A stretch of 11,077 nt of DNA from a virus (Duplodnaviria > Heunggongvirae > Uroviricota > Caudoviricetes). This document shows, in pieces, positions 1 through 11,077 of the stretch. The notes below the pieces were generated by a model, which ran no database searches, was not told the origin of the DNA, and saw only the letters and a list, made by a program, of their open reading frames with translations. The position numbers and the translations under genes were made by a program. Numbering within the stretch: position 1 is the first letter of the stretch; each line of letters opens with the position of its first letter. The stretch lies in IMG/VR virus record IMGVR_UViG_2703718845_000001; one strand, 5' to 3'.

Positions 1-45
1 TTTTATACCTGCTTATACTCTGTCACGGTATCCTATAGGTATCCT

Positions 46-84
46 AGAAAAAACGAAGGGGTCACGCTGTTAACGTAACCCCTT
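46..84 (-). terminator. Rho-independent terminator-like hairpin (minus strand) downstream of the displaced tRNA fragment
   Basis: Minus-strand reading gives stem aagggg/cccctt with internal acg/cgt pairing followed by a U-run (plus-strand agaaaaaa at 46-53). Confidence 0.5.
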
Positions 85-92
85 GCTAGATT

Positions 93-138
93 TGGTGGCC
101 CTTGCTGGACTTGAACCAGCGACCAAGCGATTATGAGT
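93..138 (-). other. Partial tRNA (3' 46 nt, anticodon loop to CCA end) - displaced att copy, not a complete gene
   Basis: Reverse complement reads actcataatcgcttggtcgctggttcaagtccagcaagggccacca: T-arm and acceptor 3' strand of a CAU tRNA; the sequence beyond 138 does not continue as tRNA. Confidence 0.7.
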
Positions 139-149
139 TGGTTGATAAC

Positions 150-318
150 CCTTTACTTACAGATACTTAGCGATACTTTTCAATACCTTAGCATTTTTTA
201 AAACTACTGTATAAATACCTGTATATACCCCAAAATACTTCTTTACGGTATCCTATAGGTATCCTGGAGCAGAACAAGCGATTTTCCAGGATACCAGATC
301 GCTTGGTGGGGTGTATGA
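150..318. promoter_or_regulatory. int-upstream region with repeated GGTATCCT / GATAC-type motifs (putative att arm sites and/or int promoter-operator)
   Basis: Exact 20-mer cggtatcctataggtatcct at 246-265 (also at 26-45 and 10941-10960), inverted copy aggatacc at 288-295, inverted repeat acaagcgat / atcgcttgg (272-280 / 297-305), several gatact/atacct repeats at 162-238. Confidence 0.35.
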
Positions 319-1740
319 GTGAAATTATTCAGATTCTCTAAAGTAAAAATTGCAGAACTGCCAACGCCGGAACATGGACAGGTCGAATATGGTGATACGG
401 AGGTTAACGGGCTGCGTGTCCGTGTAGGTTCGTCTGGTGTGAAAAGTTTCTGCATTTCCCGTAAGCGTAACGGAAAATTTATTCGTGCAACGCTGGGGCG
501 TTTTCCTGATCTGAGCGTGGATAATGCCAGGGCTAAAGCTATGGAACTCCTTGGCGAAGTCGCCACAACGGGGATAAATCCGAACATAGCAAAGCGCACT
601 AACAACAAGGCCATGATAACGCTGAGTGAGGCGATTGACGCCTACGTAAAAAATCGTGGCCACCGCCTGAAACCCTCCACAGAAAAACAGTACCGCAGCA
701 TATTACAGAATTATTCCGGTGACTGGATGGCCCATACCCTCGCCAGTATTTCCCGCGAACGGGTGGAACAACGGCATAAGGCCATCACTGATGGGGCTGT
801 ATGGTTCGGTGCTGATAAAACCACGTTACGGGCTGGGGTTGGTACAGGAAGCAAGGCACAGGCCGATTTATGGGCGCGTGCGCTACGTGCTGTGTGTCGG
901 TTTGCGCATGATCATTACCGTGATGATGCGGGTAATACTCTTTTACCGGATCCGCCGACTCTGGTACTGAGCACCAAGCGCCAGTGGCACGGAACGGTAA
1001 GAAAAACGGAACGTATCCGCCTGCATGATTTTCCCCGCTGGTTTGCTGCTGTAGCTGCTGTGCGCGACCAGGGCGAACAGGAAAGGGATGATATAGCTGT
1101 TACGGTATGTGATGCCGTGGAAATGGCACTGTTTACCGGACTGAGGAAATCAGAAGTTTTTGGCCTTACGTGGGATCGCGTGAATATGGGCGGTCGCTTT
1201 TTCTGGATAGACACCACGAAAAACGGGGATCCGCTTGAACTGCCGATCACTGATACGTTGCGGAAAATGTTTCTTCGCAGGCTAAAAAACAAAGCTGCTG
1301 ATGATGTGCTGGTGTTTCCTGGCGTGAAGGGAGTGATTCAGGAGACACGGCACATCATAGACCGGATAAGCGCGGCTACCATTCCTGAGGCGAACGATGA
1401 AATGCTCTTCCCTGTCCCGTTTAAGTGGCACGACGCACGCCGGACGTTCGGAACGGTTGCTGAGCTGGTGGGCGTGGGTAATTACATCCTCAAGCGCCTG
1501 ATGAATCACCGCACTATGCGAAGTGCCGACGTAACGCAGGGGTATTTACATTTCGGTGCTGATGAACTGCTGGAGCCAGCATCACGGATAGAACGGGCAA
1601 TTCTGGAACATGCCGGGCTGGTGGAGAGTAAAAAATCTATCGATGCGCAATTACTTTCCGCACTGGAGGGCATGAGTGATGATGAAAAACGTCGTTTACT
1701 ATTTGCTATAGTACAAGAAAAGAATGACATATATGGGTGA
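319..1740 (+). CDS. int: Tyrosine site-specific integrase (P4-like family)
   Basis: 473-aa ORF, GTG start; N-terminal arm-binding-like region (GLRVRV..G.KSF..RKRNGKF..LGRFPDLSVDNARAKA); catalytic box motifs TGLRKSE, HDARRT and GYLH (R...H-x-x-R...Y); lies next to the att repeat. Confidence 0.9.
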   Translation: MKLFRFSKVKIAELPTPEHGQVEYGDTEVNGLRVRVGSSGVKSFCISRKRNGKFIRATLGRFPDLSVDNARAKAMELLGEVATTGINPNIAKRTNNKAMITLSEAIDAYVKNRGHRLKPSTEKQYRSILQNYSGDWMAHTLASISRERVEQRHKAITDGAVWFGADKTTLRAGVGTGSKAQADLWARALRAVCRFAHDHYRDDAGNTLLPDPPTLVLSTKRQWHGTVRKTERIRLHDFPRWFAAVAAVRDQGEQERDDIAVTVCDAVEMALFTGLRKSEVFGLTWDRVNMGGRFFWIDTTKNGDPLELPITDTLRKMFLRRLKNKAADDVLVFPGVKGVIQETRHIIDRISAATIPEANDEMLFPVPFKWHDARRTFGTVAELVGVGNYILKRLMNHRTMRSADVTQGYLHFGADELLEPASRIERAILEHAGLVESKKSIDAQLLSALEGMSDDEKRRLLFAIVQEKNDIYG

Positions 1741-9175: not shown

Positions 9176-9300
9176 ACGGGTCCTCCCGGTGGAGTGGTCT
9201 GCCACGGGGCGGGAGCGGCGCGGAAAAAGGCTAGTTTTTGCATTTTCATTCGTCATCATCATCTTTCTATGATATTGAATTTTAAGTGTTTTTATTTTTA
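9165..9300. other. Lambda-like cos site (cosQ/cosN/cosB-like), copy B
   Basis: acgggtcctcccggtggagtggtctgccacg gggcgggagcgg... aligns with the lambda cos junction; downstream cgtcatcatc...aagtgtttttattttta resembles lambda cosB (cgtcataacttaatgtttttatttaaaa); sits about 100 bp upstream of the Nu1-like gene, as in lambda. Confidence 0.65.
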
Positions 9301-9402
9301 GTATGTTAATTTTGCTTGTTTTATGCTCAACATATAGCGCATTTTTTGACCTCTTCTGAAAATTGTTCGCAAGATGCATGTTTAAAACATTCTGGAGCGG
9401 GT

Positions 9403-9888
9403 ATGGATCGAGAACTGAAAAATCTGATGCTGAACATTAATCAACTGGCGGCGATAGCGGGAATATGTCGTCAGACTGCGGCGGCAAGGCTGAAAAACAT
9501 CCAGCCAGCCGGAGGGCATGACAAGCTGAAACTCTATCGGGTGACTGACATTCTGACCTGTTTTCTTGATCTTCCCGTTCCGGCATCACTGGAAGAAATG
9601 GAGCCACATGACCGTAAGGCCTGGTATCAGTCCGAACGTGAGCGCCTCAAGTTCGAACAGGAAACGGCGCAACTCATACCCGCCGATGATGTGCGAAAAG
9701 AGATGGCTATATGGGGGGAAATCGTAAGCGAGGAACTGGCAAAACTCCCCAATATTCTGGCACGTGATGCCGGGCTTAAACCGATGGCAGTAAACAGAGT
9801 GCAGTCAATTATTGACGATTTGTGTAATCAGATTATCAGCCGGATGGTAAAAAATGACGTAGTGAATGAGGTCGCAAAACAGGCATGA
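9403..9888 (+). CDS. Nu1-like small terminase subunit homolog (possible Rpp-type packaging-redirection protein)
   Basis: Probable start is ATG 9403 (GGAG 5 nt upstream; ORF track starts at in-frame ATG 9316); N-terminus INQLAAIAGICRQTAAARLKNIQPAGG...KLYRVTDI parallels lambda Nu1 VNKKQLADIFGASIRTIQNWQEQGMPVLRGGGKGNEVLYDSAAVI (winged HTH). Confidence 0.75.
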   Translation: MDRELKNLMLNINQLAAIAGICRQTAAARLKNIQPAGGHDKLKLYRVTDILTCFLDLPVPASLEEMEPHDRKAWYQSERERLKFEQETAQLIPADDVRKEMAIWGEIVSEELAKLPNILARDAGLKPMAVNRVQSIIDDLCNQIISRMVKNDVVNEVAKQA

Positions 9889-10172
9889 TAATGACTGAAT
9901 CTGAAATACTGCGATTAATCCGCCGTGCTGGTGGAATCAGCCAGCTGGCTGACGAACAGGCCAAGCAGCCGGATACCGTCACCGCTGAAAATTACGCGCG
10001 TGTGGTGGCTGATGTGATGCGCCGTGACGGTATTGAGCTTAACGGCGTGGATATGCGCAACATACGAACCAGAGTTCTTGAGTTGCTGGCATACCGTCGC
10101 CGTTCTCAACAACGGAGGGAGAGCGCGAAAAATACTTACCAGTGGAAGAAGCCGAAACGGTTGCGGCGGTAG
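9885..10172 (+). CDS. Hypothetical protein (95 aa), basic C-terminus
   Basis: Start overlaps the upstream stop (ATGA); no motif recognised; last gene before the ORF-free region. Confidence 0.55.
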   Translation: MIMTESEILRLIRRAGGISQLADEQAKQPDTVTAENYARVVADVMRRDGIELNGVDMRNIRTRVLELLAYRRRSQQRRESAKNTYQWKKPKRLRR

Positions 10173-10915
10173 ATTCCTGATATTCAGGAAAACCACGAAT
10201 CTGTGGGGTTTACTGGCGCGGTTACGGCGGTGACATGCACCGAGGCAGAACAATTACCGTAGGTTAAAGCGACAGTAGTCACACCAAAGGCAGAAATTAG
10301 CGGTTAACGTAACTGACTGATATTTTCGGGAACAGCCAACGGCTGAGGCCGGAGCTATAAAAATAGCTTTGGGTACAGTCCTCAGTTTTGAGGGATGTTA
10401 ACCAACTGAATAATAAGCAAAGCTCAAAATTGAGTTTTGTATCTGCCTGAGTTATTTCTGTGCTAACTTGTTGATATTCCCGACGGCCCAAAAATGGGTT
10501 GGCGGGTGGGTGAGTTGCAGATTTGCAACTCGACCATGAAACTACGGAAACTACCCGTAGTTTGGGTAGTAAGAGCAACACCCAGATTTTGGGGCTTACT
10601 CGCGATACCCAAATAAAGGGTATCGGTGTAAGAAATATCGTTTCTCATATGTGAGTACCGAGGGCGGAATTCCGCCTTCGGTTACTTATTGTGCCCATGC
10701 ACAGGGAGGGGCGGGTCAAATCTCTGTACCCTGACGTCTTCCGGACTGCCAGCCCCATCGATTTTTTATACCCGCGAAAAATGAAAAACGCTTCACGCTG
10801 GTGGGCCTGATGCCGATATGGGGATCCACATAACGGATTATCCGTGATCATCGACCAGCTATCATGTCGGATAGTTAAAGTTTCATGACAGGTATGATGT
10901 TGCGTAACTTGTTGT

Positions 10916-11053
10916 TTTTATACCTGCTTATACTCTGTCACGGTATCCTATAGGTATCCTAGAAAAAACGAAGGGGTCACGCTGTTAACGTAACCCCTTG
11001 ATAGATATGGTGGCCCCTGTTGGGTTTGAACCAACGACCAAGCGATTATGAGT
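10916..11053. repeat. Right copy of 138-bp imperfect direct repeat (element-side att arm overlapping the intact tRNA 3' half)
   Basis: Colinear with 1-138; includes the 20-mer cggtatcctataggtatcct (10941-10960), the terminator and the tRNA 3' half. Confidence 0.8.
10961..10999 (-). terminator. Rho-independent terminator of the tRNA gene (minus strand)
   Basis: Minus-strand hairpin aagggg...cccctt followed by a U-run (plus-strand agaaaaaa), immediately 3' of the tRNA CCA end. Confidence 0.6.
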
Positions 11054-11077
11054 CGCCTGCTCTAACCACTGAGCTAA
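11008..11077 (-). tRNA. tRNA with CAU anticodon (ileX/ileY-like tRNA-Ile2, or Met-type); 5' end truncated by the window edge
   Basis: Reverse complement reads TTAGCTCAGTGGTTAGAGCAGGCGACTCATAATCGCTTGGTCGTTGGTTCAAACCCAACAGGGGCCACCA: D-arm, anticodon loop CTCATAA, T-arm and CCA end; about 6 nt of the 5' acceptor strand lie beyond position 11077. Confidence 0.85.

What the first reader, a model, noticed from the sequence alone, without database searches (positions are those of the whole stretch)
1..11077. tRNA-integrated satellite bounded by unusually long (138-bp) imperfect direct repeats
The flanking repeats cover the tRNA 3' half, its terminator and about 55 bp beyond, far longer than a minimal att core. 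The left copy's tRNA fragment matches the canonical ileX-type T-arm (from memory) while the right, intact tRNA carries a variant T-arm, suggesting the left copy is the displaced host 3' end and the right copy is element-supplied. Alternatively the left flank is the end of a tandem element just outside the window, which begins exactly inside the repeat.
Basis: partly seen in the sequence, partly recalled or inferred. Interest (0 to 1): 0.55.

Follow-up and report, generated by a model that had tools for sequence, protein, structure and literature searches.

The report
Satellite next to another satellite's end
The 138-bp repeat is real, but its outer 92 bases are not host DNA or an oversized attachment core: they are a second copy of the satellite's own attachment-site arm, so this phage satellite sits next to another element of its family (or a remnant of one) at a tRNA-Ile hotspot, which is a known and ordinary arrangement.

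Summary
The repeat is real: 1-138 matches 10916-11053 with 7 mismatches. It covers the last 46 nt of a minus-strand tRNA-Ile2(CAU), its terminator, and about 45 nt beyond.

The window is a roughly 10.9-kb PICI-like phage satellite. Its integrase-end DNA occurs in 87 of 5,426 complete E. coli genomes, and relatives sit at ileX or ileY.

- **Left tRNA fragment (93-138):** exactly the K-12 ileY 3' half, so it is host-type.
- **Right tRNA:** carries a variant T-arm that travels with the element in several genera, so it is element-supplied.
- **Positions 1-88:** not host. They are absent from empty ileX and ileY sites and from single-copy occupied sites. They carry the element's arm motif, GGTATCC-TATA-GGTATCC, which otherwise occurs once per element end.

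The left end is therefore an attP-type junction (P' arm, core, P arm). The same junction type separates the five tandem copies in E. coli A33. The most likely reading is that a neighbouring family element, or its remnant, lies just left of the window.

The 138 bp is a lower bound set by the window edge. Single insertions have only a 46-bp imperfect repeat with a 19-bp perfect core.

One oddity remains: the internal junction carries a host-type T-arm. Tandem arrays at tRNA genes are well known, so interest is low.

The parts
1..92 (-). Extra copy of the family's P' arm, lying outside this element. It holds WATACY boxes at 4 and 14, GGTATCC-TATA-GGTATCC at 27-44, a T-tract at 46-55 and a terminator hairpin at 84->56. 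It is cut by the window start.
   Evidence: Positions 1-85 are identical to 10916-11000. The terminator is and the motif. The segment is absent from native ileX and ileY flanks.
93..138 (-). Displaced 3' fragment of tRNA-Ile2 (46 nt, host ileY type).
   Evidence: It is identical to the last 46 nt of K-12 ileY and has 1 mismatch to ileX.
120..138 (.). 19-bp block that is perfectly identical in both att copies. It contains the anticodon loop (131-137) and is the probable strand-exchange region.
   Evidence: All T-arm differences lie at 102-119. In single-copy sites the host T-arm is on the fragment side and the element T-arm on the tRNA side. Placing the crossover in the loop is an inference.
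139..318 (+). P arm of the att site and the int upstream region. It holds ATACY boxes at 162-239, GGTATCC-TATA-GGTATCC at 247-264 and an inverted GGATACC at 289-295.
   Evidence: (D3). The arm is conserved upstream of int in Kosakonia, Rosenbergiella, Erwinia, Trabulsiella, Yersinia, Kluyvera, Citrobacter and Superficieibacter.
319..1740 (+). Tyrosine integrase with an N-terminal arm-DNA-binding domain.
   Evidence: Pfam Arm-DNA-bind_3 at 2.5e-13 and Phage_integrase at 1.1e-12; phrog_1. The exact protein is listed in 1450 blocks of the public collection; the contigs examined place it at ileX and ileY.
1724..2449 (+). Low-GC accessory gene (241 aa) of unknown function; a rare variant.
   Evidence: No Pfam, PHROG or PADLOC hit. 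GC is 31-38%. It is found only in 25 blocks of short contigs.
2583..2801 (+). AlpA/excisionase-like HTH protein.
   Evidence: HTH_17 at 1.4e-11; phrog_66, excisionase and transcriptional regulator.
3609..3812 (+). Icd-like cell-division inhibitor homologue. Coordinates were transferred from the annotated relative.
   Evidence: Annotation of L001 9182-9385. The offset was inferred from the neighbouring DUF4222 gene.
4413..6245 (+). D5/P4-alpha-type primase-helicase (the replication protein).
   Evidence: D5_N, DUF5906 and Pox_D5; phrog_864 at 1e-191.
6244..6481 (.). Iteron cluster (TGTTCACC / GGTGAACA in both orientations); the probable origin.
   Evidence: Repeat families D7, D10, D13 and I1, I2, I9. 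The origin function is inferred.
7233..9146 (+). ClpP-like prohead protease fused to a major capsid protein.
   Evidence: CLP_protease at 1.7e-35 and Phage_capsid_4 at 3.6e-53. It is about 68% identical at the DNA level to mEp460/Ayreon-type lambdoid phages.
9316..9888 (+). DUF1441 protein, similar to a small terminase subunit.
   Evidence: DUF1441 at 2.2e-35; phrog_141, terminase small subunit, at 2e-57.
10916..11007 (-). This element's own P' arm: arm boxes, GGTATCC-TATA-GGTATCC at 10942-10959, and the terminator at 10999->10971 for the rebuilt tRNA.
   Evidence: The architecture is conserved across genera while the terminator stems co-vary.
11008..11077 (-). tRNA-Ile2(CAU). Its 3' 46 nt are supplied by the element (variant T-arm). 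Its 5' end is cut 6 nt short by the window.
   Evidence: Rfam RF00005 at 55.3 bits, 5'-truncated. The full gene is annotated in relatives.

Best explanation
**The element.** The window holds one PICI-like phage satellite. It was inserted by its tyrosine integrase into a tRNA-Ile2(CAU) gene. The host-type fragment points to ileY.

The integrase exchanges strands in or next to the anticodon loop, within the 19-bp perfect block at 120-138. The element's attP carries three things on the far side of that core:
- its own copy of the tRNA 3' half;
- a terminator for the rebuilt gene;
- a set of arm-type protein-binding boxes (the P' arm, 10916-11007).

A second set of boxes lies upstream of int (the P arm, 139-318).

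**What a single insertion gives.** A single insertion duplicates only the 46-nt tRNA half. Here the duplicated stretch also includes a second P' arm at 1-92. The left end therefore reads P' arm, core, P arm. That is the order found in attP and at the internal junctions of tandem arrays.

**What this means.** The window's element lies directly next to another element of the same integrase family, or next to the remnant of one. The 138 bp is only the part of that neighbour the window happens to include.

**What is shown and what is inferred.**
- Shown: the sequence identities, the absence of 1-88 from empty and single-copy sites, the distribution of the motif, and the existence of such arrays.
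- Inferred: that the boxes bind Int (or AlpA/Xis), that exchange occurs in the anticodon loop, and what lies left of position 1.

**The host-type T-arm at the junction.** The junction carries the host ileY T-arm and the native base T at position 92. This was most likely produced in one of three ways:
- unequal crossing-over between the flanking tRNA halves near the tRNA 3' end;
- gene conversion from the native ileY 3' half (the neighbour's outer displaced fragment);
- a neighbour whose attP carried a canonical T-arm.

The data do not distinguish these routes.
For: **1-88 is not host DNA.**
- The K-12 empty ileY and ileX sites have unrelated DNA at that position. So do single-copy occupied sites (PK5074 at ileY, APEC E16002 at ileX).
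- Only 54 of 5,426 E. coli genomes contain at least 80% of 1-138. The listed ones lie at a tRNA-Ile or an array junction.
- Only one genome, A33, has 1-330 contiguous.

**The motif marks element arms.**
- GGTATCC occurs 8 times in the window against 1.05 expected.
- The 18-nt double motif occurs once per element end in most single-copy relatives fetched. The window has a third copy at 27-44.
- The motif sits in the same two positions in more than 12 Enterobacterales genera, while the terminator stems between it and the tRNA co-vary.
- WATACY boxes occur 8 times in 412 nt of arms against 0.39 expected.
- The integrase has an arm-DNA-binding domain.

**The junction type is known from a real array.**
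- The P'-core-P pattern is found in the window at 27-150 and, among 64 fetched loci, only at the internal junctions of A33.
- A33 carries five tandem copies at ileX, between nfeF and mug.

**The 138 bp is a lower bound.** Family members share about 545 bp at this end whatever their cargo.

**Published background.** Tandem arrays at tRNA genes are documented: 125 tandems among 3,919 islands (PMC4383910), and the mechanism is described in PMC7192596.
Against: - The sequence left of position 1 is not available, and the source genome could not be found. The neighbour itself is therefore unseen.
- In A33, every internal junction carries the element-type T-arm. The window's junction carries the host ileY T-arm instead. 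Simple sequential integrase-mediated insertion does not predict this, so an extra recombination step or an unusual neighbour is needed.
- Homologous tandem junctions of this family are rare: 1 of the 87 E. coli genomes that carry the integrase-end DNA.
- Base 86C matches neither the usual P' arm nor the K-12 ileY flank.
Confidence: 0.8

Rival explanations
1. Solo remnant. Only a fossil P' arm of an earlier, now deleted, family element remains left of the fragment. The window's element later inserted next to it, and there is no intact neighbour. (This is a sub-case of the best explanation's 'or its remnant'; its confidence is part of that 0.8.)
For: - The repeat starts exactly at window position 1. 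If the window was cut at a detected repeat boundary, homology ends there, whereas intact family members would share about 450 bp more.
- P'-core junctions not followed by a same-family integrase exist in Serratia (L046) and Photorhabdus (L044).
- The hybrid character of the junction (host T-arm, native base 92T, private base 86C) fits an old, reworked site.
Against: - Positions 1-85 are 100% identical to the element's own P' arm. That is unexpected for an old fossil.
- How the window edges were chosen is unknown.
- No E. coli genome of 5,426 shows such a remnant downstream of ileY.
Confidence: 0.2
2. The whole left copy is native host DNA displaced by insertion. On this view the host site and the element share 138 bp of homology, an unusually long att identity.
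For: - The tRNA part (93-138) and base 92 are indeed host ileY-type.
- The native ileX terminator region shows weak similarity to 74-95, 16 of 22 bases by my hand alignment of the sequences; blastn aligned the window from position 74 at ileX.
Against: - Empty ileY and ileX alleles lack 1-88.
- Single-copy insertions of the same family have native DNA abutting the fragment.
- Positions 1-45 carry the element-specific arm motif. That motif is absent from the native flanks examined.
- The best match to 1-138 in 5,426 genomes is 97.8% identical, and it is itself an element arm.
Confidence: 0.03
3. Assembly artefact. The junction or the copy number is a product of assembling a repeated or replicating satellite, not the true chromosomal arrangement.
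For: - The only comparable array, A33, is full of frameshifted genes, which suggests a noisy long-read assembly.
- The window's right edge falls exactly at the last base shared by ileX and ileY. That is a natural break point for an assembly graph.
- Contigs carrying the rare 241-aa gene all break inside the tRNA repeat.
Against: - The junction contains bases (86C, and 92T next to a P' arm) that occur in no other copy. A mis-join cannot create them.
- The window's genes are all open.
Confidence: 0.05

Closest known systems
Tandem arrays of integrative elements at a tRNA gene (Islander/TIGER 'tandems'; Hudson et al. 2015, PMC4383910; Mageeney et al. 2020, PMC7192596)
   Same: A tyrosine-integrase island sits in the 3' half of a tRNA gene, with the gene regenerated at one end and a displaced fragment at the other. 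A further att-type junction shows a second element at the same site. A five-copy array of this very family exists in E. coli A33.
   Different: The neighbour is not visible in the window. The internal junction carries the host-type T-arm, not the element-type one seen in A33.
Gram-negative phage-inducible chromosomal islands (PICIs such as EcCICFT073; gene organisation as summarised in PMC11773190)
   Same: The element is about 10.9 kb. Gene order is int, AlpA-like regulator, primase plus iterons, then a short packaging module. There are no tail or lysis genes.
   Different: The packaging module is a ClpP-protease/major-capsid fusion plus a DUF1441 small-terminase-like protein. Helper induction was not tested. 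I did not find this particular family named in the papers I read.
Capsid-forming PICIs (cf-PICIs)
   Same: The element encodes its own major capsid protein, prohead protease and a small-terminase-like protein.
   Different: No portal, large terminase or head-tail connector genes were found. It therefore cannot build a full capsid alone as cf-PICIs are described to do. That definition is from my own knowledge.
Satellite phage P4
   Same: It has a tRNA-gene att site and an integrase with an arm-binding domain. It has a D5/alpha-type primase followed by TGTTCACC iterons; from memory, this is the same octamer as the P4 ori/crr repeats. It also has an Icd-like gene.
   Different: No Psu, Sid or Delta homologues were detected. 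The target tRNA and the packaging genes differ.
Lambda-type attP with arm-type sites
   Same: A short core is flanked by arms packed with repeated boxes on both sides, about 300 bp in total. The integrase has a separate arm-binding domain.
   Different: The P' arm also contains the tRNA 3' half and its terminator. The binding of the boxes is inferred, not shown.

Membership tests
tRNA-gene-integrated island (Islander definition) | Tyrosine integrase gene inside the element | tested here: met
   Pfam Phage_integrase and Arm-DNA-bind_3 on the 319-1740 product.
tRNA-gene-integrated island (Islander definition) | Regenerated tRNA gene at one end, with its 3' part supplied by the element | tested here: met
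   A tRNA hit at 11011-11077 with a variant T-arm that accompanies the element at both ileX and ileY. In the window the gene lacks its first 6 nt.
tRNA-gene-integrated island (Islander definition) | Displaced 3' tRNA fragment in the same orientation at the other end | tested here: met
   Positions 93-138 equal the last 46 nt of K-12 ileY.
tRNA-gene-integrated island (Islander definition) | Uninterrupted site in related genomes | tested here: met
   K-12 ileY and ileX are empty. Only 87 of 5,426 genomes carry the integrase-end DNA of the element.
tRNA-gene-integrated island (Islander definition) | Excision to a circle with the predicted attP | not testable with these tools
   This needs PCR or sequencing of induced cultures.
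Tandem array at one tRNA gene | Internal junction of attP type (P' arm, core, P arm) | tested here: met
   The pattern matches window 27-150 and otherwise only the A33 internal junctions.
Tandem array at one tRNA gene | Second element with its own integrase and its own tRNA fragment | not testable with these tools
   It would lie left of position 1. The source genome was not found.
Tandem array at one tRNA gene | Internal junction carries the element-supplied tRNA half, as expected for purely integrase-mediated arrays | tested here: not met
   The window junction has the host ileY half, whereas A33 junctions have the element half. This argues for an extra recombination step or a different neighbour. 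It does not argue against a neighbour.
PICI (Gram-negative type) | Gene order int, AlpA-type regulator, primase/replication plus origin, then a small packaging module, in 10-15 kb | tested here: met
   The spacing between the att copies is 10,915 bp.
PICI (Gram-negative type) | No tail or lysis genes | tested here: met
   None were detected by Pfam or PHROGs among the ORFs searched. Some relatives carry a partial tail-gene fragment that this window lacks.
PICI (Gram-negative type) | Induction and packaging by a helper phage | not testable with these tools
   The capsid gene is about 68% identical to mEp460-like lambdoid phages, which suggests candidate helpers only.
Capsid-forming PICI | Own portal, large terminase and head-tail connectors | tested here: not met
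   Only the protease-capsid fusion and a small-terminase-like gene were found.
P4-like satellite | Psu, Sid and Delta homologues | tested here: not met
   No such families appeared in the Pfam or PHROG scans of the ORFs.

The most novel reading that the evidence does not exclude
The host-type ileY half sits at an internal P'-core-P junction. In addition, arms are found next to canonical T-arms in some genomes and next to the variant T-arm in others. Together these observations could mean that these satellites and their hosts regularly swap tRNA 3' halves by homologous recombination. On that view, element attP sites capture host tRNA alleles. In the other direction, a satellite-borne tRNA-Ile2 T-arm allele spreads as part of the working gene across at least six enterobacterial genera.
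Probability: 0.12. Interest if true: 0.35.

Novelty: new member of a known kind. Interest (0 to 1): 0.15.

Why it matters
The main value is practical.
- Repeat length at an island edge should not be read as the size of the att core when elements stack at a hotspot.
- A window edge can truncate the repeat and give a false impression of a defined length.
- For this family, the true single-copy repeat is 46 bp with a 19-bp perfect core.
- The conserved GGTATCC-TATA-GGTATCC and ATACY boxes give a simple marker for finding element ends and array junctions at tRNA-Ile2, and in Photorhabdus at tRNA-Lys.

Nothing here changes what is understood about site-specific integration.

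Tried and rejected
**Searches that led nowhere**
- ARAGORN on the window found no tRNA because the gene is cut. The Rfam search was needed instead.
- Finding the source genome failed:
  - The exact integrase is too common to identify it; it is listed in 1450 blocks, and none of the ten places shown has an element to its left.
  - The rare 241-aa protein occurs only on contigs shorter than 5 kb, which break inside the tRNA repeat.
  - Exact-pattern scans for the hybrid junction found nothing in viral contigs or metagenome contigs.
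  - A general P'-core-P pattern also found nothing in either collection.

**Readings considered and rejected**
- *A terminal-repeat or circular-contig artefact.* The right copy ends 24 nt before the window end, and host tRNA 5' sequence follows it.
- *A mis-join.* The junction has private bases.
- *1-92 is native to ileX.* Only a weak 16/22 resemblance exists near the terminator.

**Other negative results**
- PADLOC gave no defence-system hit for the accessory genes.
- Rfam gave nothing for the 94-nt internal repeat.

Full report
**Observation**

The window contains a direct repeat, 1-138 against 10916-11053, 138 nt long at 95% identity. The seven mismatches are at 86, 92, 102, 105, 109, 110 and 119.

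ARAGORN finds no tRNA. The tRNA gene lies on the minus strand at the extreme right, and the window edge cuts off its first 6 nt. Rfam recovers it at 11011-11077 with 55.3 bits, E 6e-10, anticodon CAU, flagged as 5'-truncated. With its CCA end it spans 11008-11077.

In the direction of the tRNA, the repeat covers three things:
- the last 46 nt of the gene (93-138 and 11008-11053);
- an intrinsic terminator (84->56 and 10999->10971, with a T-tract), found by the scan in both copies;
- about 45 nt beyond the terminator.

**What the element is**

The genes are, in order:
- a tyrosine integrase with an arm-DNA-binding domain (319-1740);
- a low-GC accessory gene with no hits (1724-2449);
- an AlpA/excisionase-like HTH protein (2583-2801);
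- small genes, including an Icd-like one and a DUF4222 protein;
- a D5/P4-alpha-type primase (4413-6245), followed by a cluster of TGTTCACC iterons at 6244-6481;
- a ClpP-protease/major-capsid fusion (7233-9146);
- a DUF1441 protein similar to a small terminase subunit (9316-9888).

No portal, large terminase, tail or lysis genes were found. This is the layout of a Gram-negative PICI-type phage satellite. The capsid gene is about 68% identical at the DNA level to mEp460/Ayreon-type lambdoid phages, which are candidate helpers.

The P arm and the 5' part of int occur in 87 of 5,426 complete E. coli genomes, at 95 places. The exact integrase protein is listed in 1450 blocks of the public collection, and the contigs examined place it at ileX (between nfeF and mug) and at ileY (between ypjC and ygaQ). 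The same backbone carries either this packaging module or a lambda-like one with a gpE-like capsid protein, a gpD-like decoration protein and a Nu1-like small terminase.

**Empty-site test**

K-12 ileY and ileX are uninterrupted. The left fragment, 93-138, equals the last 46 nt of K-12 ileY exactly and differs from ileX at one base.

The right tRNA differs from ileX at positions 50 and 64, a compensatory pair, and at 59 and 60 in the T-loop. The same variant accompanies the element at both ileX and ileY, and in Pectobacterium, Kosakonia, Serratia, Kluyvera and Rosenbergiella.

Positions 1-88 are a different matter. The DNA downstream of K-12 ileY, and of ileX, is unrelated. In single-copy occupied sites that native DNA abuts the fragment directly. 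This holds for PK5074 at ileY and APEC E16002 at ileX.

Only 54 of 5,426 genomes hold at least 80% of 1-138. The listed ones lie at a tRNA-Ile or an array junction. Only one genome holds 1-330 as a contiguous stretch.

**What 1-92 is**

The heptamer GGTATCC occurs 8 times in the window against 1.05 expected. Seven of the eight lie in the att regions. The double motif GGTATCC-TATA-GGTATCC occurs once upstream of int and once beyond the tRNA terminator in most single-copy relatives fetched. The window has a third copy at 27-44.

A scan of one genome per species found the motif in the same two positions in many Enterobacterales genera. In the alignment of P' arms, the motif and two ATACY boxes are invariant. 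The terminator stems between them and the tRNA differ and co-vary.

WATACY boxes are also concentrated in the arms: 8 in 412 nt against 0.39 expected.

I infer that these boxes are arm-type binding sites for the integrase, which has the matching domain, or for the AlpA-like protein. On that reading the functional attP runs from about 10916 through the core to about 318, roughly 300 bp. Positions 1-92 are then a second P' arm. Together with the fragment and the P arm, they form an attP-type junction.

A pattern written for that junction matches the window at 27-150. Among 64 fetched loci it otherwise matches only three places in E. coli A33.

A33 carries five tandem copies of a family member at ileX. 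The host-type fragment and native nfeF DNA are at the outer end, and element-type junctions separate the copies.

Tandem arrays at tRNA genes, and the way they arise by insertion into the regenerated core, are described in the literature (PMC4383910 and PMC7192596).

**Consequences**

The element's true left boundary is in the core at about 131-138, not at position 1.

A single insertion of this family gives a 46-bp imperfect repeat. Its 19-bp perfect block (120-138) contains the anticodon loop. All T-arm differences lie on the far side of that block. This places strand exchange in or beside the loop, although the exact position is inferred.

The figure of 138 bp is a lower bound imposed by the window edge. 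Family members share about 545 bp at this end whatever their cargo.

**The one feature that does not fit a plain array**

In A33 every internal junction carries the element T-arm. The window's junction carries the host ileY half, and base 92 also matches the native ileY flank. Bases 87-88 match the P' arm, and 86C matches neither.

Three routes could produce this. I cannot separate them:
- unequal crossing-over between the two tRNA halves flanking a single element, resolved near the tRNA 3' end, which would make the neighbour a duplicate of this element;
- gene conversion of an earlier neighbour's rebuilt tRNA back to the native sequence, before this element inserted;
- a neighbour whose attP already carried a canonical T-arm.

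The third kind of arm exists. It is seen at ileX in three E. coli genomes and in Leclercia, Enterobacter, Moellerella and Yersinia. None of those, however, has the ileY-specific base.

A solo remnant of a neighbour also remains possible. Whether the repeat really ends at position 1 depends on how the window was cut, which I do not know.

**Verdict**

This is a member of a known kind of element in a known kind of arrangement. The source genome could not be located, so the neighbour remains unseen. My confidence that 1-92 belongs to a neighbouring element or its remnant is about 0.8. Interest is low.

Noticed in passing
window 6621-6714 and 9156-9249: A 94-nt direct repeat (93% identical) brackets the capsid module. 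Each copy starts with a terminator-like hairpin and can fold into a long hairpin (CCUUUUUU...AAAAAGG enclosing a GC-rich stem; z-scores -1.7 to -2.8). Both copies are conserved in relatives that carry the protease-capsid fusion. The repeat is absent from most relatives with the lambda-like capsid module. There is no Rfam match, and its function is unknown.
   Followed up: partly
window 6244-6481: Downstream of the primase gene there is a dense cluster of TGTTCACC / GGTGAACA iterons in both orientations, probably the replication origin. From memory, the octamer is the same as the P4 ori/crr repeat.
   Followed up: no
window 1724-2449: A low-GC (31-38%) 241-aa gene lies between int and the AlpA-like gene. 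It has no Pfam, PHROG or PADLOC hit. It is a rare variant, seen in only 25 blocks of short contigs, while relatives carry a different 238-aa gene at this position. This looks like a variable accessory slot.
   Followed up: partly
L003, L065, L066 (E. coli A33, NZ_CP028742.1, about 4233963-4286700): Five tandem copies of a family member, about 10.5 kb each, lie at ileX. Many genes are annotated as frameshifted. The array may be real amplification, or it may be affected by noisy long-read assembly.
   Followed up: partly
L005-L014 compared with the window: The same integrase and replication backbone carries two alternative packaging modules. One is the ClpP-capsid fusion plus DUF1441. The other is a gpE-like capsid protein, a gpD-like decoration protein, a Nu1-like small terminase and an SSB. 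This suggests module swapping to match different helper phages.
   Followed up: no
L033 3573-3714 and L044 (Photorhabdus): The same GGTATCC-TATA-GGTATCC arm motif and terminator layout lie downstream of a tRNA-Lys(CUU) gene. The att-arm design appears to have been retargeted to another tRNA.
   Followed up: partly
L027 (E. coli GPEC996) and L006 20513-21422 (E. coli A36): The P' arm and tRNA half are followed directly by the arm and integrase of a different integrase family. In L006 this is a 438-aa integrase at 20822 that runs off the locus end. Unrelated elements therefore also stack at ileX.
   Followed up: no
window 11077 (right edge): The window ends exactly at the last base shared by ileX and ileY; the next base is G in ileX and A in ileY. 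The window alone therefore cannot say which gene is occupied, and the edge looks like an assembly or repeat break point.
   Followed up: no
window 2808-3812: The 334-aa ORF in the mechanical list is probably spurious. It overlaps a minus-strand YlcI/YnfO-type gene (3278-3469). In annotated relatives only its last 204 nt (3609-3812) correspond to a gene, the Icd-like one.
   Followed up: partly
window 10194-10463: About 270 bp are present here but absent from the otherwise collinear right ends of L004 and L007. The content was not examined.
   Followed up: no
L011 (E. coli, CP043262.1): A copy with the identical integrase lies between a large lymphostatin-type island and cspD/clpS. No P' arm motif occurs within the locus. 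This is possibly a secondary site or a decayed end.
   Followed up: no
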